Below, piece by piece: positions 13,001 to 51,465 of a stretch of 64,000 nt of DNA. Made by a program: the position numbers and the translations under genes. Under the pieces are notes generated by a model. That model saw only the letters and a program-made list of their open reading frames with translations. It did no database searches and was not told the origin of the DNA. The DNA lies in assembly GCF_003704095.1 (NCBI RefSeq), contig NW_020846334.1:310001-374000 (forward strand). The letters run 5' to 3'. The stretch's first letter is position 1. Every line of letters starts with the position of its first letter. The stretch comes from Pocillopora damicornis. Lineage: Eukaryota.

Positions 13001-16000
13001 GCGGAGAACGGGGTAAGGATATTTTCCAACACGCTTTTGGGTCGAGATGGTTTAGCTGATAACAATCCTAGAAGATAAAATATAAGTTATGTTTTGCACT
13101 CAAAGAAGAGCAGGGTAAGATGATGGCTTACTAAAAGGCTTGAAAAGTAAAAATAAAAAGTGGGTTAAGTTTGTACTCGAGCCAGTTGGCCCATCTAGTT
13201 GTAACTTATCTCGGTTTCCATAGCATGAAGCGATCTAGAGTATTACCACTTCCCCTTGAATGAGATGCCAGTCCATCGCAAGGTTACCCCCAGCATTTCA
13301 TCAGGCTTCCCTGATAATCCGCTAGAACCCACTTATACTTCTGCTGGTAGAAGAAGCACTGTGAGAGTAGAAACTCTCGTCTAAAACCCAGACCCATCGA
13401 CCTGGAGTCCAGTGCACTGACCATCGAGTCAGCCGCCTTGAAAAGCGCGATGCAAAAGAAAATGGACGAGAAAATAATTTAATGTTAGTTTTAAGATCTT
13501 ATATAATATAAGATCTTAAAACAAACATTAAATACAGGACTTAGACAAATAAACCTTGAGAAGAAAGCAAGAAGAAGAAAACTACAAAAACAACAAATAA
13601 ATTTCTCACCACTGTCATTTCTGGGTTTGGTTTTAGGAGTTCTCCACGAGAAATCTGTCGAGGGTGTCTGAAACGTAGGACGGTTTGGGGCTGTGCAAAG
13701 GATAAGGAGAAAGGGGATTGTAAAAAAAAAAAGTGTATACATATATATATTTTAGTCATAACTGCACGCTAATTTCGTGTAAGATCGCGCGTTGGTTTGA
13801 CGTTTATCAGACCATATGAATTGCTGCATAAGTTGATGCTATATAAAACTATATATATTAAATATTATTATATTATTATCAGTTTGTCAGTGCACTGAAA
13901 CTTGAGTGTCTAGGACGAAACGTACCTAACAAACTTTGTTTAAATTTATCTAGTTTGAACGCTTTTCGATTGGGTGTTGTAAGACCGAGAGCGATGTCGT
14001 TACGGTGGCCAATCGGAACAAAGGGATATATTACAAGGAGCCAATGAAAACACAAGGGAAAAAAAGGCGCGGGAAAACGCGGACAACCAAGTCATTAGTA
14101 AAGGTCTTAAATCTGATTGGATAAGACGGTGTGCAAGTTCTCGGGGCCACTCACATGGTAAAGATATGATAAATGGTGGCAATCTAGGACTTTTATTTTT
14201 TACTTAACTGAAAACTAAACTGCTTCATAATTTGAGCGCTTTTCAATTGAGTGTTACAAAACCAAAACTAAAGGAATCACAACAGCCAATCATAGCAAGG
14301 AGAATGAAGTAGCCAATGACAACTCAAAGTAAAAACAAGCAAACTACCTGAAGCGCGGGAAAACGTGGGTGATCAAGTAGCGATTGGGTTTAGTTTGAAC
14401 CTGATTGGTTGAGAAAGTGGTGCGAGTTTCTGGACCAATCACAGGGCGAAATAAGCGAAACCAAAGCAATCCCCAATTACTTTCGTCGCTCATTTAAAAA
14501 TTTCTCTATCTTACTTGAATGGGTGGCGGCCTTCCTGGATAAACTGGTCAATGAAGTCTTTGAAGGTGCATTACCTGCAACTGAAAAAAGAGAAAAAATT
14601 ACGTATTTGAAAAGTTGGCAATGAGAAGCTCCAATGCAAGTTTAAACCGAAAAAATTGTGAAAATCTTGGCAAACCCAAACCCCGAAATGAATGGCAAGG
14701 AAAGTGGGCAACTTCCTAGGGCTTCATTTCTCCATGGGACAGTTTTTATTTCATCTTATTTTAATTAATTTTTTTTCCAAAGCAGGTTGAATTACCTGGT
14801 GTTGCTAACTCGATACAATCTTCATTTTCTTTGTCGTCATCAAAGAATTCGCCAGGTTCAGGAGTGAAACCAGGGTCACAAAATACGTCATCGTCCTGAG
14901 CTTCGATGATGTCATTATAATCATCATCATCATCATCATCCACAATAAACATGTTTAGACTGTAGCCAAAGAAATTGTCAATATGATCAACACTGTGCAG
15001 AAAACAAGGCTCTTATTGAGAGAGAGCACCAGTAAGTTGTTTGGTACAATGTCCTAATAAGCTTTTATACCCTAACATCAGTATACACATTCTCCACACT
15101 ATTCTCTATACATTTCATAAGGTGCTGACAAGGAGAATTTGGGTGAAAATCAAGTGATTCTTTGGTTGATGATCATTTCCTTTATTCTCATGACCTTAAT
15201 GTGTGGTTCAAGGGTGATCATGTAAGGAGAAATTAGATGCTGGTCACCCTTTGGGGTCAAAGGGTTAATCCTGTTAGTTGTGTTTTTCCAACTGGGTTAA
15301 GATAATGAATGTTTAATCATTTGACTCACAATATTTAAAATGTAAAAAATATTTAAATTTAAAATTAAAAAATTTAACTTTATAATTTATATAGCACTTA
15401 TTGCAAGCCTCTAAGTGCATTACAGTATTTAAACATAAAGTGCTTGAAAATCCCATCTGGCAGGAGGCAGACCAGTTGGCTATTTACAGACTGCAGCCAA
15501 GGAGTTGAACCCAAGGCGACAAATCCATTGAGTGGCAGGGTGGAGGACTTGAACCCAGGACCACCAGATTAACAATTCCAGCACCCTAACCCCTCAGCCA
15601 CTCTGCCTCCACTCAACATTTAGAGTCATGTTCAATTGTAGAGTTAGTCTATCAATTGAGGATTGCAAAGTTCTGATTTTTATTCTGTTAGTAGTTGTTA
15701 AGTTGAATGATAAAACATTGCACCAGGAGTGATCAACCATTGCTATAAATAGCATTGTATTATCCCATCTCATTGCCAGATGAGAGCAAGCAGTATACCA
15801 CCAAAACTTTGCAATATTCAATTTAAAATAATCCTACAGTTAATGGTAACTCTTGATCATGTGAAAAATGATCAAACAACTATTTATTGAGGTGTCTAAT
15901 TATACTCAATTTGGATGGTAAAATAAAATTACTTTCAAGTAAATTATGGTTTGAATTATATAAGTAATCATAAACTCAATGATTTACACATAAACATATT

Positions 16001-19000
16001 TTTATTACCTTGATTCTGGTTTTCTCTCTTTTGCAAACAATCCTGATTGTTTGGGAGTCCGGATATTCTGTAAAACTATATAAAAAAACATCATTTTTTA
16101 AATTAATTCGATGTGTCTCAAGATGGCATATCAAAGTATGCCTGGATCAGATTCAGTAACAATAAGAATTCTTAAAGTTAAATGAAAATTTTCTTACACT
16201 GTTCAAAGTCATCTACATCATCACTTTCACTTTTCTCTGGATTATACTTGTTCAACAGTCTTTCACTTAGGCTAAAAACATTCAACAAGTGAGAAATATC
16301 ATTTATTGTTAGTAATCCACTACCTTCATTTTTCCTCCAAAATGATAACTTGTTAATTGCCACTTTTTAAATGATTAGTAAACACACATACAAAAATTAA
16401 CAATCGTAACATGCAAGTTGTCAAGTTGTTTCTAATACCTAGCTTTAACAGGACTGGTTTCTTCAATACTGCAGTTAATGGTACCCATGCTAGGGAAAAA
16501 TAGTAAAAATGTCAGGTTATATATAGCAATGAAACTCAGGATAGAAAGTATTTTATTATTAACTCATAACTGAAGCATCAATGTCTGGGCTACGAACAGA
16601 GTAAGGTCATAAAAATTACTATATGTAATAACATGATTTCAAGTGCTTTTTCAAGACAGCAAAATTGTACAAGCATATAGGGCAAGTGCAATTTGTAATC
16701 TTTGAAAAATTACCAATACTAATTAACAACAATTTAATTGAGAAATCTTGTTATTACCATGCAATAATACACAAAAAAAAGCATCATCATCAGAAAGTCA
16801 AGACAGACAAAATTTTTATAATTTGCAATTTGTAATTTGCACCTGTGTTACAACTTTGCACTGGTGTTACAACTCTGTACTAGTGTTACATGAAAAAGGC
16901 ACTTGTTTCCAGCCAATCAGAAGTGCACAATTTTTCATGTACATTATTACAAAGTTTACATGATAGCTTTCCTGTTACAGAGACTATGTAGAATTATGAG
17001 AGTAAAAAAAGGCTGTGCAGAAGATTTATTTCACTTAACCTGGTTTTAGCTTTGATTGATTCTTTTGATACATACCTTTCCCCATCAAAGTCGTCATCAT
17101 CATCATCATCATCACTTTTTCTATCATAGTCACATGCAGAAGATATTGCTAAAACTTGCATTTCTTCACTATCCAGAAGATTCCTATCATCATCATCATT
17201 ACACTTATCATCATTGCTTTTGTTTAAACACGTGTGGTCTTTGTTGTCTTCCTGACTATCACTGTAGCTGTCAGTGTTGTTAAGGGAGCTGGATTCTTGA
17301 AGTTTGGAGAGCTCATGATCAACACCCTCGACAGGACTGTAAGATCTATTGTTACTTTCAGAGCTGTTATTAAAACTGCTGCAACCATTTCTGCAAAAGT
17401 GGGAAAAAAAGAAAAGCATCAAGAGAGTCACAATGTTGCAAGTCTTGTGATAAAATTGTGCTCATTGACCACTAACCTGAGTGTGGTCCTGCTTAAATCT
17501 ATTGACAAAGCACCTTGGCCTTCATCATCTGTCACAGAGTTTAACATTTCTGTTTTTCTTTTTTCTATGTTGTTGCATTGTACATCTTTATCGTCAACAT
17601 CATCATTATGCTCAATATCGTCAACATCAGTGTTACTTAGTCCATTGTGGACACTATTGTTGTCACAAGGCTCATTACTGCCACAATGGGAACCAGTTTC
17701 ATCAAGTCTGGACAACTCGCTGACTTTTGCAGGACTATCAGATAAACTGATATTTTCGGTGCTAACATAGCTGCAGTCATCCCTATTAAGACATAAAGAT
17801 ATTTTCTTTACAATGTAAATGGTCAGAAAAAGCTCATTCCTTGTAAAGAACTAACAGTGGGTTCCTCAAACCCTTGATGCAATTATAAAGAAGCCCATCT
17901 GGTATCTTCTTCTAGCAATTTTAATACATTATCTGGAAAATAGGTGGTGAGAAAAGGCAGTTGTAATGGCTGGAGGCAAAGGGTACATTTTTGATACAAA
18001 AACAAACATATACAATCTTAATATAGTCACAGTCACAGCAAACTCCCTTAACTTATTCACATGGTAGTGTCAAATACCTAGAGGGGAGAAATATCAATCC
18101 ATTATTCCTTGAGGTGATAAACTTGTTACTTTTTCTTATAATATCTTTGCATTATCCACATAACAGGTAATGAGAATTCTCAGACTTATCAGGTAGAAGT
18201 TGTTCTCTTAATCTGACACCAAATTCTGATAACTAATCACTTCTGGGAGTGAAAGGGGTTAATAAACTAACTATATGATATAATTACGATCACGGTCAAA
18301 TGCTTATAATAAAGATTAAAATTAATTACAGAATCAGTATGGAATTTCATCTTCACAAAATAAGCAAGAAAATTAATTTTTCTTGCCTTCATTTTACCTT
18401 GACTGGGACCTGATCAATTCCCTTGATAAGTTCCTGCTGCAACTGTCACTAACTTCCAAGGAATTATCTAAGAGAGATGAGCAGCCTTCCTCTACAATCA
18501 TGAGTGATTTTGCTTCTATAATGTCTTCGTAATCATCCTTCAGCTGATCACACCTTTCAGCATTGTCATCATCATCCAATGCATCATCACTACCATTTCT
18601 GTACTTGAACTCATCATCAGCATCATCATTGCTATTTGTCTTTCCATTAGAATCATTCACAGTGTTGCCTTCCTCTCTGTTGTTATAAAAACAAGAATCC
18701 TCAACTTTGAAGCCCTCAAGGCTTGCTGTTCCGTTTGCATTCTCCAACCCTTCTTGAATGCATTGTTCTGTCATGTCAAACCCAGAACTGTCCCTCTCAA
18801 AACTGTGTTCAAGTGTGCCACTCATTAGATCATTGTTTTCAGAAAAATACATTTTTTCGCAAAGCTGAGAATCAGTTGAGGATTCTTGATTTACATTTGA
18901 GGTATTTCCTACAGCATCGTCACAGATATTTACGTAATCACTGCAGTCGTCTGCATCGTTGGAATACATGATCACGCTTGAAGTATTGTCCTCCTCCTCA

Positions 19001-19530
19001 ATTTCTTTTCCGTGGTCAGAGATCAGACCAACTGATTCCGTCTTTGTAACAATTCCATCTCTGTCTCCATTTGATTGCGATAATTTGATCAGCTACGGAA
19101 CAATATGAAATCATCAGAATGGATTAGACACTCTCGCAAATATTATAACACGTACAGACCATGATAAGGTGAAAGAGGGATATGCTACAGTACCGTACTC
19201 GAAATAAGCGATCAAAATCGGGAATGCATTAATCTACACAGCTGATTTGATCACGAGCTAGGAAGAGTCTTCTTAAACAGCTAGACCTCATAAGACACTT
19301 TGTAGATCGAAAAGTGTCAACTAAAGGTTAAAAGATACAATGGGCGAGATACTAAAACAAACATTTGCCAGAGGAGCATTCAATACGAAAAACTGAAATC
19401 GATTACGATTATTTAAAAGCTAAATTACCTTTTCAATTTTCCCACGCAAACTAGGCTGATCAAACCATCCAAATTTTATGCCTATGTTTAAAAATCGTTC
19501 CTCTACCAGTTTCTTCGTATACACTTCCAT
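10042..19530 (-). CDS. GCNA: Germ cell nuclear acidic protein (GCNA/ACRC): acidic disordered N-terminus, SprT-like metalloprotease, Zn finger, HMG-box-like C-terminus; ~863 aa
   Basis: Phase-consistent exons: 19530-19429, 19092-18398, 17782-17477, 17390-17076, 16271-16198, 16075-16009, 14959-14796, 14580-14515, 13690-13610, 13067-12919, 12579-12509, 12250-12192, 11722-11626, 11503-11396, 11032-10973, 10219-10042 (2592 nt). Motifs: LFELYNRTVFDNQLP..ISWNSRMRSTAGFC, IELADKVIDSADRLRDTLIHELCHAAAW (HExxH), GHGPVW, RCHSY..YRCTKCG..GRHSKS..CAYC, FAMFVKENY. Long D/E-rich N-terminal region. Confidence 0.93.
13165..13430 (-). mobile_element. SINE-like repeat, same family as 59375-59665
   Basis: gatgccagtccatcgcaaggttacccc..gcactgtgagag..ggagtccagtgcactgacc. 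Confidence 0.55.
14235..14500. repeat. Dispersed CCAAT-rich repeat family (other copies ~11830-12100, 13960-14200, 44045-44150, 45625-45870)
   Basis: Shared aagcgcgggaaaacg..gattgg..tgcgag..ggaccaatcaca core. Confidence 0.7.
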
Positions 19531-19708
19531 GATTCAACTCGCGATCGATCTCTCAAATCTTACTGCGAAAGTCAGAGGAACTACATTCGAATTTTGGCGC
19601 TGAACTAATCGGTAAAGCTGAAGACAGAGAAGGCGAGGTTACAAAAGATTGAGAGATGTTGATTGGTTGGCTGTTGAGTAGCCAAGCCTCGAGAAAAGTC
19701 AAAACAAC
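19531..19708. promoter_or_regulatory. Bidirectional promoter between GCNA and COQ2
   Basis: Only 178 bp separate the divergent start codons. It contains GATTGG (CCAAT box), and AACATGGCGG (YY1-like) overlaps the COQ2 ATG. Confidence 0.7.
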
Positions 19709-22700
19709 ATGGCGGTCTTTACTGCCTCAGCAACCCTTCCAGTTTTCAGAACAAGTTTATTTATGTTTAAATGCGTTTGTAGAAAATCACCTTTAGCTGA
19801 TGAGGTGGTCCTTGCGCGCCACATATGCGGATCGACCATCAGGACTAGAACGACTTGGTTTGATCGTCAAAAAGGCTCTCAAAATTGCACCGCGCGACGC
19901 ACGAAAGTAGAATTTGCGCCTGGACCTAATACATTCCAAAGAACTCAATCGACGTTTACAGAAAACAACTCTTCTCCTAGCACCAGGTGTACCCCGGAGT
20001 TCATTAAATTGCCGTGGGGTGTCCAACTAGGGCACTTCCAAGCAAAAGGAAGCAGGTACTATCATTCTCGACGGCGGCTGAATACGGCTAACTTTGTGGA
20101 CAGTTGCCCTCCTGGCGCACAGCCGTATCTACGGTTGATTCGTCTCGATAAACCCATAGGAACATGGCTCTTGTACTTGCCATGCACATGGAGCATAGGG
20201 CTTGCAGCTCCCGCAGGCTCCTTACCAGATCTCAAATTGTTGACCCTTTTTGGAGTAGGGGCCTTGGTGATGAGAGGGGCGGGTTGCACCATCAATGACA
20301 TGTGGGATGTTGACTTTGATAAGAAGGTGAGCAGGTGGAACAACTCTAGGGGTTGCAAGGAGATTTTCAAAGGTTTGACCTGATCTCAAATTCACGTCAA
20401 CTCTTGTGATGGTCCTCAAAGTCTTAAAAGTAGTGCTGGTGCAATTTACTTTGGTTTTTGAAGCCTCAAGGAGTGAAAGTTCTGAAAGACTGGAATTTTT
20501 TTTCCAGCCCAGGATCTTGGTCGATAGTAGCTAGAATAGGTTAATGTAAGATTGTTAATGTGGAAATCTTTGTATAGGTCTGTGTGAATAGGGCACATGG
20601 AGTAAGCTGAGTTACAATAAGGTAATAATTATATGAAGGAGTTGTGTGACTAAAATTGTTAGGTCCCAGTCTAAGATTTTCAAACAGAGGTCTCAACATC
20701 TTGGGGAGACTGAGATTTTACCATTTACAGCTCCTGTGTCTGTAATGCTTGTGTCTCCCACAGGATGTCCTAAAAAAAATTCAGATAAAATCCTTAACCC
20801 TTTCACCCCCAAAAGTGTCTGGCTTATAATTTGTCCTTACAGTATCACTCTTGAATCAAATGTGAAGGTTNNNNNNNNNNNNNNNNNNNNNNNNNNNNNN
20901 NNNNNNNNNNNNNNNNNNNNNNNNNNNNNNNNNNNNNNNNNNNNNNNNNNNNNNNNNNNNNNNNNNNNNNAAATAAAAATTAGAACAATTCTCTCTGCTA
21001 AAGAATTTTGGTAATTCTGTCAACAGTAGTCCAAGTTTGGAAATATATGGTTGATTTCCATTTGAGGCCTAATTGTGAAGAGATGTGAGAAGGAGAGAAG
21101 GAGAGAAGGAGATGGTAATCAAGTTGTCTTCTCAGGGTTCATTCATTAACACCTGAGTACTATACCTCTCTTGATATGAAATAAATTTTATCCTGGGTGG
21201 ATGGTGTTTTTTTTTTTTTTTCCTGGCTGGCTGCTAAAAAATCAATAGAGAATACTGTGTCTTCTACAATGATCAGCAATTTTATTCCTAAATTCCATTC
21301 AATAATTATGGGTTAAAAAATTTCCTTCTGCCCATGATTTTAACATCTTAGGTCATCATAGTGTAAGGAACCAATGATCATTTTAGGACATCCATCACCT
21401 GGACAATTACACCACACAAATGAATGAAATCTGAACCCTTCAGCAATGTTTTATTGATATCTTTCACACAGGATAAGGATGATGATGTCTTAATTGGTGT
21501 CAAGTCCACAGCATTGCTATTTGGAGATCAAACAAAGCCTTGGCTAACAGGATTTAGTGTGGTTATGCTTAGCAGCCTCATTCTTGCTGGAATGAACAGT
21601 GATCAGGCTTGGCCATACTATCTGGGACTGGGCTGTGTTTCTTCCCATCTGGCATGGCAGGTAAGGGAAACACGATTAACCTAACCTGGGCAACCTGGGC
21701 TTAGTGTTAATTTTTAATTCAGTATAATAGCTTTGCAGAGGGATTTTCTTTCTGTATTTTTACCCATTGGTCTTGAGTCATATTAAGATCAGCCCCCCAA
21801 AAACCCTTAGCTTTTACACAGGCACATGTACATGAGAAATTAAAGCTAAGGTTAAATTTTAATCTCAGGTGAACCAAGGGCACAAGTGAATTCAAGAAGT
21901 GAATTCAAGAAGTGGCAATCATGTAGCCTGAGCAATTAAAAATGTGGTCCTGTGGTCTTGGTCTTATGTAGCGCACTCTATAAGTCCTTAGGGTACTTCT
22001 CCAACCAGGGCCCAGTTATTCAACGAGTGAATCAACCAAGGCCCAGTTATTCCAAGGGTGAATGATGCTATCCAATGGATACGTTGCTATCCAGCGGTTA
22101 AGTGTCAACAAGAGATGCCGCAATATCACTAGATAGAGATTTATCCAGTAGATACAGGGTTTGTATGGGTCCTGGAAAACCTAGAAAGTCCTGGAATTTT
22201 ACTTTGACATTTTCCAGGACTGGAAAGCCCTGGTAGAAGACTACAGGTCCTGAAATGCCTGGAAATCTGCTTAACTCGAGTAATAAAGTTTTTAGAATTT
22301 ACATTATAAGAAATGTATGAAGACTGTAAGGAGAATTGATTTTGAAATTTTGGGAATGAAAGGGTTCAAGGTAAAATTTGGAGTCCTGGAAAAGTCCTTG
22401 AAATTCATTTCTGAAAATGGGTATGAACCCTGTAGATAAGGCTATCCAGCTTTAAAAGAACTATAAGAGTGGATGATTAAAGGGTATGTATCAGGTATTA
22501 GGGAAGATAGGCATTTACAAGAGAGCAAGTTGCCGCAAATAGTCTCCACTGCCGGTTTTTTGTGCCTGGTTCACTGGATCATTATGAAGAACGAGGAACT
22601 CATTAGCCAACATATCTAGGGTGTCTTTTCAAAGCTTTGACACCTAAGAACAGTATTCCTTCACTTTACCCTAATCAAAGTACTGTTGATGGAAGTAACA

Positions 22701-39384: not shown

Positions 39385-42300
39385 ATGCCATTTTCTTTGC
39401 ACAGTCACAGTGGGCAGTTCTGTAAGCATGCTTTCTGTACTTTAGAAGAGGTCGTACAAAGAGCAATCGAAGTTGGTTTCACTCACTACGGGCTTTCAGA
39501 GCATATGCCAAGATACGAAGCCGAAGATCTGTACGATGAAGAAATTGAGGTGAGTAGTGCTTCGGTCTAGAATTTAAATAGCTTTGAAATGCAGGAAACG
39601 TAAAACGAAAAAGGTATGCTCTTTCGTTTTATCGAATTCAAGCTTATGTAACTTAAAGATTTAGAAAGTTTAATTCCAGAATGAAACAAATAGAAATAGT
39701 TTTTCTGTCTGAGTTTACGACAACAATGCATTCTATGACACCAGCTATCTCGAAGGCCACATATTATTGCTTTACTGCAACCTTTTCCAAAGGAATATTC
39801 TCAGGATTCGAAAAAATGCTCCCAAATAGGGGTTTCATGTAGAAGTAACACGTTAAAAAAAGTTATTGGTAATTGTGAAGAACAATTGGAAAAACCTGTC
39901 AACTAACATTTGGCATATGGTCAGCACGCAGTTGGCCAACAGACGGTCAACAGTTGACCAACATACAGGCCACAGTTGGCTGACAGTGGACGATAGACAG
40001 CTGAAAGTGGCCGACAGAGCAGGCAGTTGTCCAACAGTCAGCCAACTGTCAGCCCACAGTTTTAAGCTGACCTGTTAGTGCTGTAATCAGTCTGCCATAT
40101 TGGAAAGGTTATTTAGACCCCAGTTTCATGCTCACTGAAGCAACTTGTGTATGAATGAATTATTGTATTATTGTGCATTATTATGATAAATTAGGATGGC
40201 GAAGACAGGGTTGATCAATTTAATTGCAAGTATAATTACAGACCAAATTGGATGACATGAAGTCCTGTTACCAATTAATCAAAACTATGACTATGACAAA
40301 ATTTGAGAAAGAAACTAGACATCTATAATATGTTTCCAGTGTGTCAACTATCCAATTAAAGTGTCCAATAACCAATTTAATTCAAGAATTTTGTTGTAAT
40401 TTTGATTAGGGTTGAACTCAGATTCCCTTAGTCAATAAAATTTTCATTTTTTCCTTTTGTTTAATAAGGGACCTGTACACTTTTAAGAAATAGATTGAAT
40501 TGGGAAATGGAATATTTTGTGGAAATGGTAAAACTGAAAATTATATATCAGTAAAATAATGGCTCTTGTCATTTTTATAGGAAAATTTGACACCTGCTGA
40601 TCTTCAGAATATGTTTAATGACTTTGTTAAGGAAGCCAGGCATCTTCAAGCAAAGTACAAAGACAAGATTTGTCTCCTTATTGGCTTAGAAACTGAGGTT
40701 ATCAGAGAAGACAGTTTTGATCAGATAAGAACACTGAAAAAACAACATGAATTGGACTATATTGTCGGATCAGTTCATCATGTGGATGGAATTCCCATAG
40801 ATTTCAGCAATGAACTGTTTGATAAAGCAGTGGAACAGGCAGGTGGAACAGAAGAAGTCATGTGTCAATACTTTGATCATCAGTATCAGCTAATAAAGGA
40901 GTTAAAACCTGAAGTTATTGGCCACTTTGATGTCATCAGGAAATATCGACCTGACATTGAATTTACAGATATCCTATGGGAAAAGATTGTTAGGAATGTA
41001 AGAGCAGGGATGTCTTATGGAGCTTTGTTTGAGATAAATTGCAGCGGTGCATCACCAACAAAGAAACTTAAATGTCCATACCCACATCCAAGGATTATTG
41101 AGGTGAGACAAGTGAAGTGAAACAGAAATTTCATTCTGCATCCTTAACCCTGTAACTCACATTCATAACCAAGACATAATTTCTCCTTACAATACCAATA
41201 CCATATCAAGCAGATGAGTGATGAGAATAAAGAAAACAGCCTTTTGCTTTTTTTTGATCCAATAAAAAGCTGCACCTCGTTTGCCACTTGTTTTTCCTCT
41301 CCACGTTTTGATGTTATCTGTGATCTATTACTGAACAGATGCATGAAAACATGAAATCAATCTGTTAACTCTCTAACTCCCAGAAGTGATTAACATGAAA
41401 CTTCTCCCTATAATACCAATACATTATTCAGGAAACAGGTTTTGAGAATATTAGAACTTGTCAGGTTGAGGCTGCTATCTTGATCTAGCACCAAGTTCTC
41501 ATAACTAATTTGCAAGAGGGGAGAATTAACAATCAGATCTTGGGAGTTAAAGGTTTAAATGCAATATGCCCCACTGGCAATGGATAGAAAATGTATTTTT
41601 TAAAAAATGGAAACTTAGTGTGCAAAAATACCTGATAATCCAATTTTGAGTGAAAAAGAAATAATTTAGAGTGTCTACTTTTCACCCTCTTTGTCTGGCT
41701 ATTGTTACAAGTGCATTCCCTGACTGCTTTTGCCAGCAGTTTTTCCTTGTCATAGCACACATTTTCAAATGGAATATGGTGTTGTGTCATGCATGTGAAA
41801 GCCATTTGCTCTGAAGAAGGCTAGTGAATGTGGGGCAGAAGTATGGGTGTAGGATCAAAACATTATTTTGCTCTCTATTTATGCTTACTGTGCATGAAAT
41901 TGGAAAGAGAAATCATAGAATTATTGAAATGAGTTAATATGTGGTTCAATTAGGAATTATTCCTGTTCATCGCACTTAATTTACAATAATAACACCACTT
42001 GCAGTACCAATTCCACTTGCAATACAAAAATTATCTATAACAATAAGCTGATAACTACTGTAATATACTAACTTTTGATAAAAGACTAATCTTGACTCAC
42101 AAGACTTTATAACCTTCTTACAATGCTTTCAAATTACTCTTACTTAAATGTACTGTTAGATAATTATATATATTTTTAATATTTTTACATAATCTTCAAT
42201 AAACAATGCCTGTGAAAAACCTCTAACAACATAAGGACGCAAAACTTTACATACACAACTTGCCTTTCGATTCTTGCAGCTGCTCTCTGATGGATGATTA

Positions 42301-42783
42301 AACACACGTTTTCAATTTGTTCTCTGCTTGTATTGCGACTTATGTTAACTGTTAAGAACAGCTCCCCTCTACTGACTGTGGGCTAATTGTTAGCTGACAG
42401 ATAACTGACAGGCCGCCAACATAACAAACAGCTTACCAACAGCTTACTTGTTGCCGTTTCTCCTATTTTTTTGACCAGCCACTGCCTCCAAAAGACCCCT
42501 TAAAGCAATTTTCCTCTTTTTCCCGTAGCTTTTAGTGGCATCTGGGGCTAAATTGACTCTGTCAGATGATTCACATGGAACAGGAGATGTTGGTTTCTGG
42601 TACAAAAACTTGCCCCAGCACTTAGCAACTTACAGGGTCAGTGAACTATACTATCTGGACAGAGCACAGGTGACCAATGACTCAGCAGGACAAGAAAAAA
42701 GAGTTGTGTCTAAAAAGTTAACAGACTGTTGGGAGCATCCATTTTGGGAAAAATGTGCAGAAACTGTAAAATATGACAAATGA
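39385..42783 (+). CDS. HIS2: Histidinol-phosphate phosphatase, PHP family (fungal HIS2/bacterial HisK-type); 313 aa
   Basis: Exons 39385-39549, 40581-41102, 42529-42783, all phase 0 with GT-AG. PHP metal-ligand motifs are intact: MPFSLHSHSGQFCKHA, GLSEHMPR, LIGLETE, YIVGSVHHVDGIPIDF, VIGHFDVIR, FEIN, TLSDDSHG. Confidence 0.9.
41365..41556. mobile_element. MITE copy of the TTAA family (subfamily of 27040-27244)
   Basis: Shares cccagaagtgattaacatg...cagatcttgggagttaaagg with 27040-27244, 55708-55890 and 25975-26165. Confidence 0.6.
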
Positions 42784-43833
42784 CAATTTGTATTTTGTTA
42801 TATAATTTAATGTAATCTTTATCTAATTTTTTTTCTTGGGGAAAGGGGGGGGGAGGAAAGGTTTAAGAGTTAAACTCAGTGAAGACATAGTGCGCTTATT
42901 CTACTTAAAAAAATGATTCCATGTTGTGGTGCAACAGTTTAGTAACAGGTCACAGATGAGGTCAAAGCCTTGTGTAATGAGGGCTATTTGTGCATTTGTG
43001 TATTTATGTGTGTCACCCTCAAAGTTTTAATGACAACGTGCCTCATGGAGCTTTATTTATTGTTATCGTTTACTAAATATCCCCAAGCTCAAAGCAATAT
43101 TTAAGCCCTAAAAGGGAGCATGTTTCATTTATGTGGAATTTAAGATATAAGTCAGCAGTTGTTTCTTTGCATTTTTATTCTATTTTCATTTTGACTTAGT
43201 CATACATCATTAAAAATGTTCAACAAAAATCTATTGTTATGAATTTTTTGCTCTTAAACAAAACTAGTTTTAAAGTTACTTCTATGTTTTTTAACAAAAC
43301 CCAAACACTCCCCTCCCCTCCCCCTCCTATCCACTTGCAGTATTACTGTTATTGGGCTTGAAACGAAGACGAAGCCTTACGACATTTGCCCAGTCATTGC
43401 GAAGTCAAATTCGGTAAGTCTTCGTACTGGCCGAAAGATAACGATTCTACGGACGGTATAAAGGAAATAGGAAAACTCGGGGAGGAGGAGACATGGTCGA
43501 GGAAAAATTTGAAAAGAAGGGGTGAAATAGTACATTCAATTTTTCTTCCTCGTTATCTACAATTTACGTGTTCAAAGAAACCGTCGTGCGACCTGAAAAA
43601 TAATTGTCCTCATTTATGAACACTCTGAGAAACCGTAGTAAAGTTTCTGTTGGCCAATGTAATACGTAGTAACAAGAACAGACTAGGAAAGATGGGCGAG
43701 AGTTGTATATGCGTGCGTAGAAGCGGGCACGGGCGAGAAAAGAGCACCTGTCCCTTTTTATCGGACATAAGACGCTCGTATAAATCCTCGCTCCTTTTTC
43801 TTAGAATGAGTGTCAAAAGTAATCGTGGCTTAA

Positions 43834-44034
43834 CCCTTTAGACCCTAATATCAGTATGCATATTCTCCATACTGTTCTCGATACATTTCTTTAGGTGCTG
43901 ACAAGGAGAATTTGTTAAACAATCAAGAGCTTCAATTGTTGATCATTTCTTTTATTCTCGTGACTTTAACGAGTGATTCAGGGCTGATATTGTAGGGAGA
44001 AATTAGATGCCAGTCACTCTTAGGAGGAAAAGGG
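43834..44034. mobile_element. piggyBac-like MITE, same broad ~200 bp family
   Basis: ttaa|cccttt...aaaggg|ttaa. Internal sequence is shared with the copies at ~15065-15268 and ~60275-60478. Confidence 0.7.
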
Positions 44035-44324
44035 TTAACCACGATTGCATTCGTTACGTTTTTCTTCACCTCGCTTCGCTATTGGTCCAGAAAACTCATT
44101 CCACACTCGCAACCAATCAGGTCGCACGCGTTTTCCCGCGCTTCATAAACCTGTGGGGGCCGTTTTGATTACTTTAGTTATAGTAATACGAAAAACACTT
44201 CATTGCTTAAGAAGACCGTGCCTCATCACTCTTCTAAGTTAGCTGTCAAGGCTTCCAATGATGTTTACCTAAACGTTTGAGAAAAAATTTATTCCTGTAC
44301 TGCAAAAGTCTTCTATGTTTCTTT

Positions 44325-47300
44325 TTACAATAAATCGGGTCGTATTCCACCCTCAGTATCTGCGTGCTCCTCAGCACCACCGGGCGTATTCTCGTATACT
44401 GGCTCCTCAGGCCTTTTTGGCCCGACGGTTTCATATAAGTTTTCTGTTTGCGGTCCATTCATATTCACGTACGTGTTGCTGCCATTAAGAACATCCTTAG
44501 GTCTTTTATAGAAGTCCTCCATCGCTACTTCTTTGGGTGTTTTATAATGACCCTCGTCCAGAGAAGCCTGAGCCTGAGACCTCTCACACGTGGCTTGGCG
44601 CGCGGCGTTGATTTGATCTTGAGTGACATAACGATCTTCATCATCACTTTTGCCATTGGGCGCGCATCCAATTTTTGTCAGAGATCCAATACTGTCGTAC
44701 AATCCCGCAGATGCCCCGTCGTCGAGTTTACTCTGCTCCGAATTCAAATCAACCCGCAAAGGATCGCATTTTTCTGAATAACCGGAAGCCACCAAAGGGA
44801 CATTTTCCGTGTCTGTGCTCGGTACTGTTCCATTTGGTTGCTCTACAAGAATTTCAGGTTGATCTGGTTCATCTGAAGTAGATAACAGCCCCTCGGTCAT
44901 GGAGTCTCCACCGAGGGTGGATGCCGCGGAAGGAGACTCATATCGGACGCTGTACGCCCCTCTTGTTACCATATCTCTCGACCGCCTTGGCTTGGCGCCA
45001 TTTTGAAGCAGCTGTCTTCTTTTGCGTGAACGTTTCCGCGCTAAGGAGAAGACAATTACGAATATGATGACCAGGAGAATGGCGCCGCCCACAGGAGCAC
45101 CAATTATGAGAATTTTGTTTAGCATGTTGTCCTTAGATGTTTTTCTTGCTGAAAATTAAGCAGTGGATAATATATTAATGATTTTTTACTGAAATGAAAT
45201 TTGTTATAATATGGAACAGTGAACTCTGACGTAGACTTGTACATGTAAATAGAATGACCACAATGACCGTAAATATATGGAAATCATGTATGTGAACTTA
45301 TTTTTAAAGAAAGAAAAAATATGTGTGAACTGTGGATTAAGAAATAATGAACACCAATGAAGCAATAGTGAAAAAATATATTTACAGTCATTGATTCACC
45401 TCTTGATGGATTTATTACGAACTAATATAATGACCAGCTCCCAGTTGGTTCGTCAGCTCAGTTGGTAGAGCGCTGCACCGGAATCACAGAGATCCTGGGT
45501 TCAAATCCCGTACAGGTCCGATTTTTTCGGGCCTTATTTTCACTATTACTTGAGTAGTGTTCATTAATACGAAGATCGCTTTCATATTTAGAATGACCTC
45601 AATCAGTGTTCGAACCTATATATAGAGTGCTTTTCGATTGAATGTCCTCAAACCAAAACAAAACCAATCAGAAGAAAGGAATTTACCCAATTGAGCCAAA
45701 GAGAAAAAGCAAACTGCCTAAAGCGCGGGAAAACGCGGGTGACTAAGTCGCGATTGAATTTCTTTTGCATTTGATAGGTTGAGAATGTGGTGCGAGGTTT
45801 TTGGACCAATCACAGCTGCAGAGTGAAGTAATGCAAAACTTAAGCAATCTAGGATTTCTTTCGACACAAAATTTCTCTAAATCGACATCTTACAAATTGG
45901 CTGCGGTCTGCAGCATTATCCTATAAACGACAGCTGTAACAAAACTGGCCTCTTCACACAAACGTACCTTGATCAAGTTTAGCAACCACTGGTGTGAACG
46001 GCTCAGACGGATGGCTTGTTGCAGCCTTCTCTGAGGAAAGTGTTGATTGAACAGTTGCTACAGTCCTTGATAAAGTCGGTTCTGTTTTCTTTGGCTCGGT
46101 GGAGAATACAACTGCGATAGAGATGTGCATGTTAGTCGATACCAAATTAGTTAGTTTTGAAACTAAGTAGAAGTATTATCCTTCGCTTCTCGCGAATTCA
46201 AAGCATGTTTGTGATGATTTTAAGAATTTAGGAAAAGAAGCAGAATTGAAATGAATGTTATCTTTTAGTCCATAATAATTTTCACTCTTTAGCTAGTCTT
46301 CTGGATAGTTTGTGGACTAAGTGACGTCATTAAAGTAGTAATTTCACCTCTTTCATCTAAATAGTCCAATAAGGATCTTACTCGTTCCTATTCTCCTTCT
46401 AACGCTTTCTTACCGCCCGCGTTATGAAAGCAANNNNNNNNNNNNNNNNNNNNNNNNNNNNNNNNNNNNNNNNNNNNNNNNNNNNNNNNNNNNNNNNNNN
46501 NNNNNNNNNNNNNNNNNNNNNNNNNNNNNNNNNAGATGGCCGCGAAATCGTGACTTAGTCACTAGCGCGTTTTCCTGCGCTATAGGCATTTTGCTTGCGC
46601 ATTACTTTGAGCTCCCATTATAGCTTATTGCGATATTTAGCTCTGATCTAAATGGCTGTTGTAATAACTTAAGTTTTCTTCTTTTGAAGTCGATCACTGA
46701 TTGCTCTCTAAAGCTGTGGGCACATCGCGCCAACAAAGCCGTAATGGTAATCCTTTAGTAATGCTTATTGGTAATCCTCATAAGAAAAGGCGATTTCATC
46801 CGTTGCAGGCTGAGCTTTTTTCCCGTCGACGGCCTAGGATTTTCTTTTTTTCTCGCGATAAAATCTCTGAAGAAAGCACTTTGTAAAGTTTTTCTAGAAA
46901 GGCTTGAAAATTAACTGATGAATTGAAAGCGAAAGGAGCGATTTGAAAGAAATATCCAGCTTTCTTAGGTCATACATGGACAGATGAACTTGATAATTTG
47001 CCATAACATGGATATGCATTCCTTCTCTAAGTTCGGATGTGGTATTCTCAAACGGATTAAGATCATGACAGGCGGAGAAACACGTATTTGTTATCCCTCT
47101 CTCGTTTACAAATTTTTTTAATTTGAGAATATCACGTCAGCTTTTTTCGAGAAGTCTGAAAGGAGTAAGATCAAAAAATCTCGGCTGTATGAGAAATAAA
47201 ATTTTGAAACAAATAATTTGTTGGATTTTAAGAGCGAACGTTGGAGCGTGTTTCAGCGATTTCAGCTTCACAATTTTGAAAACAAGTTTTAGCGAGTATC

Positions 47301-48556
47301 TACATGTTCTTAATCAAATAACCACAGCCTTTTAACCGAAAAAAATTTTTGGCTGGCTTATTACAACCTTAGTAAGATCGCCTCTTTTAAATTCGTTCAT
47401 TTATTTCGCCAGTTGACAGCTAAAAGGTGAAGCACAAGCTTAGTATACGCGTTCCCTTTATTTTTTGTGATAACACTTTTTAGCAAGTATATAGTGCTAT
47501 GAAACCTTTAATAAGTCGTTTAGCCAATTATAAAAAAGATTAAAAGCGTATCAATTGTTGTAAATGAACTACAAAAGTAAATAACGCCAATTAACATATA
47601 ATTTTCGCTCTATTCATTGCACAAATAACTCATTTCCTAAATGGTTTGTTACGTTGAATTTTAAACTCTCTTGTTTTTCTTTAGCGGCAATTGTTTTTCT
47701 ATATGGTAAGGTCAAATAATTTGGAATCTCAGCGATAACATTTATGTGATAAATCCGGTTTCAAAAAATACCAATGGAAACTACACGCTGGCTTCATGTT
47801 CACTGTATCGACCGGTTGACGAGTACAGACCAGTTCAAAACGGAAAATTCCTGAACACTGAGAAAGCCGCATCATGGCACTAATGATAAAGTGGGAGGTA
47901 AATTAGAGAATTTTCAGAGAAGGGGAGGGTTTTGTTATCCAGGCAAATCTAATATTTTTGTAAACAGTTACATAGTTCGCCGCTGTTTTCTCTATATTTT
48001 CTGTTTTTTTCTGTGGTAACTATTTGTCTGAAGACTCTCTATGCAATGTTCCTGTCACTGATGATTATCAAAGATATCGGATGAATAAAGCTTATTCAGT
48101 AACATATGTGGTGATGTAAGTTAAGTGATCGAGATTTTTCTATTGTAAGACAACTAAAAAAGTTAGTGTTGCCTGAAATTGAAAAGACACTGAGAGGAAA
48201 CATGCCAAAAACGAACTTCAACAAGCCTTAGTCGAACTGAAGCAATATCACAAACAACAGAGAGGGAAAGGTCTTGCTGAAACCCAAAAAACCACTCCAG
48301 CGATCTTCGAAGTAAATCCGATTGGGAATGTTAAATCTTCTATTTAGTTTCGATCTTCTTTAACCATCACGAAACACAGTATTATTTGAAAAAAGGCAAA
48401 AGATGAATAATCACTTTCGCTCTAGATAGTAACAAAATAATTCTATGAAAACTTACTGCTCGAAGCTGAGCTTATTCCAGCCAGGTTTATAAGAACCCAG
48501 GTCAAATGTATCATCAAGAAATTTCTTCCAAAATCCATCATCTTCATTAGTGACAT
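44325..48556 (-). CDS. Uncharacterised type I single-pass membrane protein with a tyrosine-motif-rich cytoplasmic tail (>=355 aa)
   Basis: Signal-peptide exon 48556-48457 (MSLMKMMDFGRNFLMIHLTWVLINLAGISSASS|gtaagt, phase 1). S/T/P-rich exon 46111-45968 (phase 1-1). Last exon 45148-44325 with TM ILIIGAPVGGAILLVIIFVIVFSLA, stop-transfer RKRSRKRR and a ~235 aa tail. An N-gap at 46434-46533 could hide further ectodomain exons. Confidence 0.75.
45260..45588 (+). mobile_element. Repeat containing a tRNA-like module (A/B boxes), flanked by a 10-bp direct repeat
   Basis: agctcagttggtagagcg...gggttcaaatccc at ~45447-45519. tagaatgacc occurs at 45250-45259 and 45589-45598. Confidence 0.6.
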
Positions 48557-49183
48557 AATTTGTCTCTCGTTTCCCTGGCTGTGATTTACGACGGTGAACG
48601 AAACGTCGTGATGTTTAGCGCTGAAACCAAGAAGGCCACAGAATCAATGACAAAACGTCCGGTTTTCTTGTTCCCGTACTTATAATGTGGATCAAAGCGG
48701 AACAGCTTGAGTTGAAATACGTAGCCCTACGTGCTGACGGTAACCTAAGGAGACAATTAAATTTGAACTCATTGGTATGTTTTGGTAGGAGTGCCAAAAA
48801 TATTATCAAAGCTTTGAGTTGTACGTCTTTCATCACTGACAATAGCTCGACTTCTCTTTAAGTCTTTTAGAATGAATCGTGTAAATTTTGGCCAAAAAAA
48901 TACGATAGCATAAATCTCCTTCTAACTGAGAAGTCTGATTTTATAGCTTCGTGGACATGTATGGGTGGTTTCATAATGGAACCCTATTTCTCTACACCCC
49001 TACCCCCCCCCCACCCTTCACTCCCTAAGAATGTTTCATACACATCTGTCTTTCTTTTGGGTCGTCGAAGCAAAAATATTCATGATTTATGGGTGCAGAG
49101 TAAGGTTGCCCTTGCCAAAAAATGTCGACAAGCAAGAACACGCAGTAAAAGACACCAATTTGTCGTTTTCACGACAATATTTT

Positions 49184-49320
49184 GGATCAATATCAGTATC
49201 TGGGCAACTACCCACCTACCCCTCCCCTAACCCAACAACAGTCAATTGATAACATGTTAGGGTGAATGTTGGGTTAAGGGAGGGATAGATGGGCAGTTGC
49301 CCAGATACTGATATTGATCC
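49184..49320. mobile_element. 137-bp hairpin MITE
   Basis: Perfect 26-bp TIR GGATCAATATCAGTATCTGGGCAACT with imperfect pairing continuing inward. The flanks are aatatttt and catatttt. Confidence 0.8.
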
Positions 49321-51465
49321 CATATTTTTATCGATTTTGACGCCTTTTGTCCGATCTAGTTCCTGCTTCCTGTAATGCTGCAAGTTATACGGGAGGGGAG
49401 CTTCCGTTTCATGGCCAAAAACAAGTCTTGTCGAGCAGTGGGCAATAAAAAAAATCAAAATCATGACCTCGTTCGCTTTCCTTACAAACATAACTCAACC
49501 CAACAATAAAAACTGCATGAAAATCTTTTGTAAACAGCTCGTGCAAAAAATTTAATTTAAATGCAAAGAAGAGCTGACGGAAGAAAGGAATAAATCTACT
49601 TTTTCCCGTTTGCCATCAGCCCACGCTTAAAAGCTATTATTAACCTCTTTTAATTATACTCTTTTAACGTGCGCACCTACTACACATCAAGATAAAGCAA
49701 TATTAAAGATCTCAAGAACAACTACTTTTTGATCTTATTCTAAAAGTCCTTTCTGAAGTTGTAGACTTTGTTCCTTGAGGTTTTTTACAATAAAAATAAC
49801 TTAAGCGATTTTATGTCGTGNNNNNNNNNNNNNNNNNNNNNNNNNNNNNNNNNNNNNNNNNNNNNNNNNNNNNNNNNNNNNNNNNNNNNNNNNNNNNNNN
49901 NNNNNNNNNNNNNNNNNNNNNNNNNNNNNNNNNNNNNNNNNNNNNNNNNNNNNNNNNNNNNNNNNNNNNNNNNNNNNNNNNNCCCCCCCTCGCTCTTTTC
50001 TATGCACGAAACTTTTCTGGATTGGAGAGAAAAAGCAATCAAGAATCAAAATTTTAACGAGTTCTTTCTTTATAATATACGCGCTTGATTAGAAATAGTA
50101 GTGAACCATAATGCTAATAAAACTTTGCAGGGAATTAGATTTTCGTGTTTAAACTATTTGGCGCTGCTTAGTGAACCAAATCGACTCAAGTCCTCTTATC
50201 TTCACAAACAAGATATTTCAATTGGCAAAAGGTTTGTCATCAACACGAATTAGAGCGCTAATGTCGAATTATCTTCTCAGTTAACATTATGTAACTGAAA
50301 ACAGCTGGATGATTGCAAACCATCATGATTTGTCATTTATCACTGAGCGAAAGTATTCAGAAAGATAGTATTATGCGTATATGCTAATCAAACTCTTTTC
50401 TGTCTTTTGCGAGCGCAATGGATGTCTGGCTGACAGACCAGCCAATCTCGCCGTAATGAGTTCATCAGCTATATTTAAACAGAGTTAAGGAAATATCACT
50501 TACAAGAACACTGGGTCCTCGATGAGGTAACAAACTTCAATTCTTGAATGGTAGAAAGAAATCACTACGACCGCAAAAAATCCGTTCGATCGGTTGTGAG
50601 CAGGCACGCTTCAATGATTGTCTAAAGCATGTGGAATGCTTTATGATGTGAAGTGACCTTTATCATACTGAGTCGAACAATACACGCTGCGGGAATTTTT
50701 TGGCGCAAAGTTTCATCACCTCTACGTGATGTAGGTCAATATTAGCCACTAAGAATCTGTCAAAACAAATGGGTGGAATGGATGTCACTTCCGGTGGAAA
50801 GCGCACTAAAACTATTTTATGACATCTGAGGAGGGTGATCTGAGTTTGAGCCACCTTTACTTTTTTTAAAAATATTACTTCTCTTGTAATTGATCAAAAG
50901 AGAAGTTTTTTCAGCGCTTTTTAAGGACGAATAATAACGAAGTCTTGAGTGTGTGGAAATTGTTGCGGAAGTCTTTTAACCCCGCTCGCTTGTTCAAAAA
51001 AATCAAGAGGACTGTATTCATCCAAACCAACAATCTATTGCGATATACAATTCTCACATATTCAACGGTCGTAACACAAGGATCAACGATCAACGATCAA
51101 CTAACATAATCTAAGTATACAGAGGTTTTTTCTACTATCCTTTCGTAAGGCAGTATTTTTACATTAATCACATGTACAGCAAAAGTTCCCTTTGTAATGT
51201 ATCTAAATTAAGTGACTATTACAAAATCGCATGCTCTTTCACCTTATTAAGCCTAAGAAAATGCACGCAGTTACATCATTTTATATCGTAAATAAACTCG
51301 GACTTTGTCTACGTTATTGTGAGATCTAGTGTCAAAAAATCTAACTTCTTTGCGTTACAAATGTCAATTTCTAATTAATATTTATTCACAAAATAATCAA
51401 GCATCACCTATTTCTTTCCCGACAGAAATTAAAAAAACCATCAGTGCTGTTTGCAAAAAGATTAA

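What the first reader, a model, noticed from the sequence alone, without database searches (positions are those of the whole stretch)
44325..48556. Orphan receptor/transmembrane adaptor with a 10-tyrosine SH2-docking tail
Seen: signal peptide, a ~55-aa S/T/P-rich stalk, one TM helix, a polybasic juxtamembrane stretch and a disordered acidic tail with no catalytic domain. The tail has 10 Tyr, including LYDSI, HYKTP, FYKRP, TYVNM, LYETV and VYENT. Established: YxN binds Grb2 SH2, YxxM binds PI3K p85 (YVNM satisfies both), and YxxP binds Crk/Nck/Abl. Upstream acidic residues suit Src/Syk-family kinases. Inference: this is a LAT/PAG/TRAP-like or allorecognition-receptor-like signalling scaffold in a cnidarian, a plausible undescribed immune or symbiosis signalling component.
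Basis: partly seen in the sequence, partly recalled or inferred. Interest (0 to 1): 0.7.

Follow-up and report, generated by a model that had tools for sequence, protein, structure and literature searches.

The report
Coral FN3 receptor with ITAM-like tail
This stony-coral gene encodes an unnamed cell-surface receptor with three fibronectin-type domains (hidden in a gap of the assembly) and an enzyme-free tail whose conserved tyrosine pair likely switches on the immune-type kinase Syk, which makes it a candidate coral immune or self-recognition receptor.

Summary
The tail is as described: one TM helix, a basic stretch and 10 Tyr. The ectodomain is not. RNA contigs do not join the signal-peptide exon to the stalk exon. 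A transcript-derived 708-aa protein with an identical tail carries three FN3 domains and a longer mucin-like stalk; these 358 aa fall in the gap at 46434-46533 and were not found elsewhere in the assembly. So this is a receptor, not a LAT/PAG-type adaptor. Orthologues in Stylophora, Oculina and Orbicella share the layout; the gene is single-copy here. Eight of 10 Tyr are conserved; the two YxN sites hold up, the PI3K YxxM does not. Two near-identical variants differ at 24/104 residues of FN3-3 against 26/604 elsewhere, a hint of diversifying selection resting on two sequences. Best reading: a ligand-clustered, non-catalytic receptor signalling through Src, then Syk/Grb2/Crk-Nck (inferred). Ligand and cell type are unknown.

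The parts
48457..48744 (-). Exon with 5'UTR and signal peptide (coding 48556-48457, phase-1 GT donor); a further 138 nt of transcript lie upstream and are not on 43000-49800
   Evidence: RNA contigs X1, X4, X6; model
46434..46533 (.). 100-N scaffold gap inferred to hide 1074 coding nt (358 aa): FN3-1, FN3-2, FN3-3 and the first half of the stalk
   Evidence: P0037 vs window; RNA loose ends, and DNA contigs that run 670 nt and 212 nt into the gap; no high-identity match elsewhere in G000
45968..46111 (-). Exon encoding the distal 48 aa of the S/T/P-rich stalk (phase 1-1); the whole stalk is about 106 aa, 45% S/T/P
43997..45148 (-). Last exon: TM, cytoplasmic tail, stop at 44325-44327, and 3'UTR to at least 43997
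   Evidence: RNA contigs X1, X4 identical over 1152 nt
45042..45113 (-). Single transmembrane helix (res 447-470 of P0037), no Cys in or next to it
45015..45038 (-). Polybasic juxtamembrane stretch
44688..44702 (-). LY(D/E)SI site (Y585): Y, S and I invariant in the 30-row alignment
44619..44633 (-). RYVT(Q) site (Y608): R, Y and V invariant; +3 Gln in 20 of 26 homologues
44499..44546 (-). Two YKxP sites (Y636, Y648; YxxP = Crk/Nck/Abl-type, assignment recalled); kept in 22 and 23 of 26 homologues, absent from most of the distant ones
44424..44471 (-). ITAM-spaced tyrosine pair Y661/Y673 (here YVNM-x8-YETV; in orthologues typically YxN[LV]-x6-Yxx[LV]); the first Tyr is also a YxN site
44385..44396 (-). 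YENT site (Y686; YxN = Grb2-type, assignment recalled), kept in 24 of 26 homologues

Best explanation
The gene encodes a single-pass receptor of stony corals (signal peptide, three FN3 domains, a mucin-like stalk, one membrane helix and a disordered, enzyme-free tail with conserved tyrosines) that likely signals like an ITAM-bearing immune-type receptor. Shown: architecture, expression, single copy in this assembly, conserved Tyr sites and spacing, and Syk and Abl genes in the same genome. Inferred: the stalk is O-glycosylated and lifts the FN3 head; an unknown ligand (on another cell, a microbe, or matrix) clusters the receptor; a Src-family kinase phosphorylates the tail; the YxxΦ-x6/8-YxxΦ pair binds the tandem SH2 of Syk; the YxN sites recruit Grb2 (Ras/MAPK); the YKxP sites recruit Crk/Nck/Abl (actin). 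The likely output is an activating response such as engulfment or attack at cell contact.
For: Architecture: P0037 tail identical to the window over 274/274 aa, 3 fn3 stretches (E 1.5e-24). RNA loose ends lead into FN3-1 and come from the long stalk. The same three-FN3 layout is in Stylophora, Oculina, Orbicella and unnamed P0152, P0047; P0040 aligns over all three domains, with 2 Pfam stretches. AlphaFold gives three beta-sandwiches (FN3-1/2 mostly pLDDT 75-96, FN3-3 48-77) and a disordered stalk and tail. ITAM-spaced pair in 34 of 35 homologues by the relaxed pattern, against 1.1 expected from shuffled tails; 17 of 35 by the strict Yxx[LI]x6-9Yxx[LI] pattern, against 0.3 expected (pattern from PMC9546547). 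The Tyr-to-Tyr distance of this pair takes 2 values (10 in 32, 12 in 3), against 9, 10 and 6 values for the neighbouring intervals, while distinct spacers are only 34% identical. No ITIM in 35 of 35. G000 has a tandem-SH2 gene whose two SH2 domains best match Syk N- and C-SH2 (E 1.3e-34 and 6.3e-21) and an Abl SH2. Hydractinia Alr receptors carry ITAMs next to Syk/Shark (PMC9546547), and Syk/CBM distribution predicts ancient ITAM receptors (PMC5978004).
Against: No phosphorylation, binding or cell-type data. The window's own pair is non-canonical (Met and Val at +3, 8-aa spacer), and 18 of 35 homologues fail the strict pattern. One homologue, P0030, has His for the second Tyr. The next interval (Y673 to Y686) is also fairly fixed (27 of 32 at 13), so fixed spacing is not unique to the pair. 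The homologues are related, so the shuffle expectations overstate significance. The pair could be independent Grb2 and SHP2/Src sites. The closest FN3 folds are adhesion and guidance molecules (contactin, LAR-RPTP, fibronectin), not immune receptors.
Confidence: 0.58

Rival explanations
1. A polymorphic recognition receptor (allorecognition, or an arms race with a microbe), working like Hydractinia Alr1/Alr2: variable FN3 surfaces discriminate self from non-self and the ITAM-like tail fires the response. This is a narrower form of the best explanation.
For: P0037 and P0093 differ at 24/104 residues of FN3-3 but 26/604 elsewhere (stalk 0/103, TM 0/30, tail 9/238; Fisher p=4e-9). Each is as far from the other in FN3-3 as from Stylophora (22 and 27/104), although FN3-3 is the most conserved FN3 between genera. 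FN3-3 branch lengths are 0.17/0.13 against 0.034/0.04 (FN3-1+2) and 0.024/0.01 (TM+tail). Run X1, identical to the window over the last exon, differs from both proteins at 2 of the first 10 FN3-1 residues (read from the loose end). DNA contigs X15 and X17 match the window on the 3' side of the gap but differ about 3% around the first exon. Variable ectodomains with conserved tails are described for Alr (bioRxiv 2022.03.25.485889).
Against: Only two full-length Pocillopora-type proteins, both from contigs of public runs that may be chimeric or come from different species. Two Stylophora-type sequences differ at 1/104 and three sequences of the P0047 cluster at 0-1/100 in FN3-3, so no hypervariability there. 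Single copy rather than a gene complex. No Ig domains. A duplicated, alternatively spliced FN3-3 exon or introgression would give the same pattern. No dN/dS was computed.
Confidence: 0.14
2. An adhesion or guidance receptor (works like Robo, DSCAM, DCC or nephrin): the FN3 head binds a cell-surface or matrix partner, and the Tyr sites couple to Nck/Crk/Abl, Grb2 and SHP2 to remodel actin in development, nerve or skeleton-forming tissue. The ITAM spacing would be incidental.
For: Best sequence and fold matches are FN3 arrays of LAR-RPTPs, contactins, Robo, DSCAM, neogenin and fibronectin. Automatic names are 'sidekick-2' and 'titin-like'. Two YKxP sites; Abl present in the genome. One-to-one synteny with the PHP and ubinuclein-like genes in L018 suggests a stable single-copy gene.
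Against: No Ig domains. The YKxP sites are lost in most distant homologues while the ITAM-spaced pair is kept. Fold matches are ties (Z 13-14.6, many with rmsd above 6), so they only say 'FN3'.
Confidence: 0.22
3. A cytokine-receptor-like protein: FN3-1/FN3-2 form a cytokine-binding elbow and the YxxQ site (RYVTQ) recruits STAT.
For: Weak phmmer matches to gp130 and LIFR over residues 19-281 (E about 1e-7); weak CRLF2-like D2 hit on the Stylophora orthologue (E 6e-4, under cut-off); class I and II receptors among the fold ties. FN3-2 ends in xxWS in all 7 full-length proteins checked. YxxQ in 20 of 26 homologues.
Against: No WSxWS in 7 of 7; no Cys in FN3-1/2 in 3 of 3 checked; no PxP/PxxP Box1-like motif in the first 40 tail residues in 7 of 7. 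YxxQ is lost in most distant homologues. Canonical JAK and the JAK-STAT pathway are described as bilaterian (PMC3670263).
Confidence: 0.05
4. One reading: a 355-aa adaptor made by splicing the signal-peptide exon straight to the stalk exon (a LAT/PAG-like scaffold), at least as a minor isoform.
For: Both introns are phase 1, so the skip would keep the frame.
Against: No contig of X1, X4 or X6 shows that joint, and the loose ends go elsewhere. Every full-length relative found has FN3 domains. No palmitoylation Cys. Contigs drop rare variants, so a minor isoform is not excluded.
Confidence: 0.03

Closest known systems
Hydractinia Alr family (Alr1, Alr2 and relatives; PMC9546547, passages read)
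   Same: Cnidarian single-pass proteins with an FN3-like fold near the membrane, ITAMs in several tails, and Syk/Shark in the genome; ectodomain more variable than tail.
   Different: Alr proteins have 1-3 V-/I-set Ig domains and form a large gene complex. This gene has three FN3 domains, no Ig, a mucin stalk, one copy, and a tail alignable across corals. No sequence homology to Alr was tested directly.
ITAM-bearing non-catalytic receptors read by Syk/Shark (e.g. Drosophila Draper, cited in PMC9546547; vertebrate FcR-type chains, recalled)
   Same: No enzyme domain; a YxxΦ-x6-9-YxxΦ pair in a disordered tail; a basic juxtamembrane stretch.
   Different: An FN3-only ectodomain with ligand-binding and signalling parts in one chain; extra YxN and YxxP sites; the pocilloporid copies have Met at +3 and an 8-aa spacer.
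FN3-containing adhesion/guidance receptors and LAR-type RPTP ectodomains (contactin, sidekick, DSCAM, Robo, neogenin, PTPRF/D/S)
   Same: Tandem FN3 fold; FN3-3 is about 30% identical to LAR-RPTP FN3 repeats. The Stylophora orthologue was auto-named 'sidekick-2' and 'titin-like'.
   Different: No Ig domains, no phosphatase or kinase domain, only three FN3; the tail matched none of these. The automatic names reflect the FN3 domains only.
Transmembrane adaptor proteins LAT/PAG/LIME (abstract starts of PMC2213442 and PMC2194117 seen in the listing)
   Same: Long non-catalytic tail with many tyrosine motifs, including YxN.
   Different: TRAPs have very short ectodomains (PAG 16 aa) and most are palmitoylated (recalled). 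This protein has a signal peptide, an ectodomain of about 420 aa and no juxtamembrane Cys.

Membership tests
Transmembrane adaptor proteins (LAT/PAG/LIME) | Very short extracellular part with no ligand-binding domain | tested here: not met
   About 420-aa ectodomain with 3 FN3
Transmembrane adaptor proteins (LAT/PAG/LIME) | Juxtamembrane palmitoylation Cys (feature recalled) | tested here: not met
   No Cys in residues 456-490
Transmembrane adaptor proteins (LAT/PAG/LIME) | Non-catalytic tail with multiple conserved Tyr motifs | tested here: met
ITAM-bearing receptors | Yxx[I/L]x6-9Yxx[I/L] in the tail | tested here: inconclusive
   Strict in 17 of 35 homologues, relaxed in 34 of 35; the window copy is relaxed only
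ITAM-bearing receptors | A tandem-SH2 Syk-family kinase available in the organism | tested here: met
   G000:C1902 SH2 pair best matches Syk; its kinase domain was not checked
ITAM-bearing receptors | Dual phosphorylation by Src kinases and binding/activation of Syk | not testable with these tools
   needs biochemistry
Hydractinia Alr family | V-set/I-set Ig domains N-terminal to an FN3-like region | tested here: not met
   Three Pfam fn3 stretches fill the folded ectodomain; no Ig family hit
Hydractinia Alr family | Member of a tandem multigene complex | tested here: not met
   One match for the TM+tail in G000; neighbours are PHP, ubinuclein-like and UbiA-family genes
Hydractinia Alr family | Extreme allelic polymorphism of the ectodomain linked to fusion/rejection | tested here: inconclusive
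   FN3-3 divergence between two variants, none in two other small samples; phenotype link not testable
Class I cytokine receptors | WSxWS motif in the second FN3 of the cytokine-binding module | tested here: not met
   0 of 7 full-length proteins; only xxWS
Class I cytokine receptors | Conserved Cys pairs in the first FN3 (feature recalled) | tested here: not met
   No Cys in FN3-1/2 in 3 of 3
Class I/II cytokine receptors | Pro-rich Box1 for JAK next to the membrane (feature recalled) | tested here: not met
   No PxP/PxxP in the first 40 tail residues of 7 of 7; a crude pattern test
Sidekick/DSCAM/Robo/contactin/neogenin | N-terminal Ig array before the FN3 repeats (feature recalled) | tested here: not met
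   FN3-1 follows the signal peptide directly in RNA and in the full-length proteins
Receptor tyrosine phosphatases/kinases | Cytoplasmic catalytic domain | tested here: not met
   Disordered tail ending at stop 44325; transcript continues as 3'UTR

The most novel reading that the evidence does not exclude
This is a coral self/non-self receptor: a single-copy FN3 receptor with deeply diverged, balanced FN3 alleles in Pocillopora, wired to Syk through a conserved ITAM-like pair. It would be a direct candidate for a scleractinian allorecognition or symbiont/pathogen-discrimination determinant, built from FN3 rather than Ig domains.
Probability: 0.14. Interest if true: 0.85.

Novelty: new variant of a known kind. 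Interest (0 to 1): 0.52.

Why it matters
ITAM-Syk signalling is argued to predate bilaterians (PMC5978004), but the cnidarian receptors I found described with ITAMs are hydrozoan Alr proteins. A single-copy receptor conserved across several coral genera, with a fixed ITAM-spaced pair and a Syk partner in the same genome, makes the upstream end of that pathway testable in corals. If the FN3-3 divergence is allelic, it is also a concrete candidate for coral fusion/rejection genetics. Practically, the public Pocillopora damicornis model (pdam_00008721, 328 aa) lacks the signal peptide and all FN3 domains, and the Stylophora orthologue is misnamed, so the gene is easy to miss in immune surveys.

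Tried and rejected
Rejected: the 355-aa three-exon model; PI3K YxxM as a family feature; Y500 and Y558 as conserved sites (5 of 26 each); cytokine-receptor and TRAP membership. P0045 and P0046 were judged chance or TM-only matches (unrelated repeats) and dropped; P0041 (64 aa) was dropped as a fragment. Five of the 34 hits (P0019-P0022, P0024) were left out of alignment A1 as near-duplicates of P0018, judged from the table only. The FN3 exons were sought in G000 with the whole protein (63 of 287 candidates scored) and with FN3-1/2 (9 of 9 scored); no high-identity match was found. The metagenome scan gave 2 loci, neither reaching the FN3 exons. A homodimer prediction for the FN3 head gave no verdict (score 0.00 in two runs, alignment not used), which is no evidence either way. 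Fold searches gave only generic FN3 ties. No ESM Atlas look-alikes were obtained. A full-text search for six accession strings found one irrelevant paper; four supplementary files of PMC13319465 held none of three Stylophora ids. The supplements of the Stylophora cell atlas (PMC8162421) were not seen, so cell-type expression is open. No earlier scan findings by sequence or words. ARAGORN found no tRNA in the window.
Full report
Observation. The minus strand carries three coding pieces: 48556-48457, 46111-45968 and 45148-44325. The last exon holds one TM helix (res 447-470 in full-length numbering), a basic stretch and a 238-aa tail with 10 Tyr. The tail has no Pfam family above cut-off. TM+tail has one match in the genome.

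The gene model is incomplete. Eighteen public runs were listed as holding the last exon, 12 on record as RNA. In the three RNA runs laid (X1, X4, X6) the 45968/45148 splice is present, but no contig joins 48457 to 46112. The X1 contig carrying the signal-peptide exon goes on for 1005 nt that are not on 43000-49800, and the contig carrying the stalk exon has 86 unplaced nt in front. The loose ends read as the start of an FN3 domain and as further stalk. DNA contigs extend 670 nt and 212 nt into the 100-N gap, so the gap is larger than written. A search among longer proteins gave P0037, 708 aa, identical to the window over the last 274 aa, with three fn3 stretches. It has 358 aa (1074 nt) between the window's first and second exons. 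These residues have no high-identity match elsewhere in G000, so I infer they lie in the gap. AlphaFold on a 10-row alignment gave three beta-sandwiches (FN3-1/2 confident, FN3-3 less so) and a disordered stalk and tail (mean pLDDT 51.9).

Family. Named relatives are P. damicornis pdam_00008721 (328 aa; it reads like window exons 2-3 only), Stylophora XP_022800690 (706 aa, auto-named titin-like or sidekick-2), Oculina XP_078369847/9, Orbicella XP_020609826 and Desmophyllum KAJ7389694 (370 aa, partial). The full-length ones scanned carry three fn3 stretches. Among 1.84 billion representatives only 12 proteins matched TM+tail at E<=0.001; 10 are real relatives down to about 39% identity, all unnamed there. 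All named relatives are stony corals. Whether the family stops at Scleractinia, or the tail just diverges beyond detection, is not settled. Metagenome locus L018 has the gene tail-to-tail with the same PHP-family gene as the window. Sequence and fold searches of the PDB return generic FN3 arrays: LAR-RPTPs (best E 1.7e-26), contactins, Robo, fibronectin, and more weakly gp130/LIFR. The Z-scores are tied at 13-14.6.

Tyrosines. I compared 26 homologues (alignment A1: 30 rows, minus the window and three rows over 95% identical to it). Eight of the 10 Tyr are kept in 22-26 of 26; Y500 and Y558 in only 5. Mean conservation is 0.80 for Tyr against 0.51 for other tail residues (p=0.009 by permutation; rows are related). 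YxN at Y661 has Y and N in 26 of 26, and Y686 is kept in 24 of 26. The Met of YVNM is in 2 of 26, so the PI3K site is not general. The YKxP sites are lost in most distant homologues. SH2 assignments of YxN, YxxP, YxxM and YxxQ are recalled knowledge.

The ITAM-like pair. In 35 homologues (27 from A1 plus 8 more distant or full-length), Y661 and Y673 form YxxΦ-x6/8-YxxΦ in 34 (1.1 expected from shuffles). Seventeen meet the strict definition Yxx[I/L]x6-9Yxx[I/L] used in PMC9546547 (0.3 expected). None has an ITIM. The Tyr-to-Tyr distance is 10 in 32 rows (one of them with His for the second Tyr) and 12 in 3, whereas the neighbouring intervals take 9, 10 and 6 lengths; distinct spacers are 34% identical. 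Against this: the window's copy is non-canonical, the following interval is also 13 in 27 of 32, and the rows are not independent. I identified only these three by search.

Mechanism (inferred). Ligand binding to the FN3 head, held out on a glycosylated stalk, clusters the receptor. A Src-family kinase phosphorylates the tail. Syk docks on the pair, Grb2 on the YxN sites and Crk/Nck/Abl on YKxP. The output is an activating, actin-remodelling response. The architecture is shown (confidence about 0.95); the Syk step is likely but untested (overall 0.58). Rivals are an adhesion/guidance receptor (0.22), a polymorphic recognition receptor as the narrower form of the main reading (0.14), a cytokine-receptor-like protein (0.05) and a short adaptor isoform (0.03).

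Variation in the ectodomain. P0037 and P0093 are identical in stalk (0/103) and TM (0/30) and differ at 9/238 in the tail, 6/99 in FN3-1 and 9/106 in FN3-2, but at 24/104 in FN3-3 (p=4e-9 against the rest). That equals their distance to Stylophora in this domain (22 and 27/104), and in a 7-row FN3-3 tree the three are unresolved. The changes cluster at residues 281-299 and 321-337. Run X1 shows a third variant at the start of FN3-1 (2 of 10 residues) and 8 substitutions in the 100 coding nt of the first exon, against 2 in 188 nt of its UTR (p=0.004); four of the eight lie before a second ATG and may be untranslated. DNA contigs X15 and X17 differ from the window by about 3% around the first exon and not at all 3' of the gap. 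Against: two Stylophora-type and three P0047-type sequences show 0-1 FN3-3 differences. Species differences, introgression, a haplotype-mosaic assembly, chimeric contigs or a duplicated exon are not excluded. This is a lead, not a result.

Known families. Not a TRAP (large ectodomain, no Cys), not a class I cytokine receptor (no WSxWS in 7 of 7, no Cys in FN3-1/2, no Box1-like motif), not Alr or sidekick/DSCAM/Robo (no Ig), not an RPTP or RTK (no catalytic domain). It works most like an ITAM-bearing receptor, and its closest cnidarian analogue is the Alr family.

Literature seen: passages of PMC9546547, PMC5978004, bioRxiv 2022.03.25.485889 (53), PMC13319465 (4 supplementary files searched) and PMC3670263; listings with abstract starts only for the rest. 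No paper on this gene turned up in the accession search or in the topic searches. The library lacks most subscription journals, and the supplements of the coral cell atlases were not seen, so the gene may be listed there.

Verdict. New variant of a known kind; interest 0.52.

Noticed in passing
window 46953-48813: DNA contigs of runs X15 and X17 differ from the window by about 3% (plus a 16-nt insertion near 47657) in this stretch, but match it almost exactly at 43997-46433, 46534-46942 and 49329-49800: a local divergent haplotype or a haplotype-mosaic assembly around the first exon.
   Followed up: partly
window 40581-42783 (+): PHP-domain gene (Pfam PHP, E 2.6e-11; histidinol-phosphatase-like by recall) lies tail-to-tail with the receptor; the same arrangement is in metagenome locus L018.
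   Followed up: partly
window 26161-38811 (-), 19682-20383 (+), 10042-19092 (-): Neighbours: ubinuclein-like gene (weak UBN_AB hit), UbiA-family prenyltransferase (COQ2-like by recall), and an acidic protein with a weak C-terminal HMG-box hit (GCNA-like by recall).
   Followed up: no
window 45446-45554, 43830-44024, 45646-45756, 49177-49329: High-copy repeats in the introns and 3'UTR, very deep in RNA and DNA contigs. The first looks tRNA-derived by eye, but ARAGORN calls no tRNA.
   Followed up: no
L017 (G000:C3684:67261-70539): Another probable receptor gene: a C-type-lectin-like exon (recognised by eye), an FN3 exon 35% identical to FN3-1, and a TM-like exon on the same strand.
   Followed up: no
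L021/L030 (G000:C1902:15463-16897) and L023 (G000:C247:186479-186715): Syk-like tandem SH2 gene (tested); an SH2 followed by an ankyrin-like sequence that looks like Shark/HTK16 (recalled, untested).
   Followed up: partly
P0171 (Orbicella XP_020609826) and P0048 (Oculina XP_078369847): The Orbicella model ends in a second, near-identical copy of the TM+tail exon (tandem duplication or assembly artefact). Oculina has an isoform with 28 more stalk residues, pointing to alternative splicing of the stalk.
   Followed up: no
G000:C3127 (about 30-188 kb), C481, C2688, C2801, C4204: Dense arrays of FN3 exons (about 30% identical to FN3-3), over 30 on C3127 alone: very large FN3-repeat genes or clusters.
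   Followed up: no
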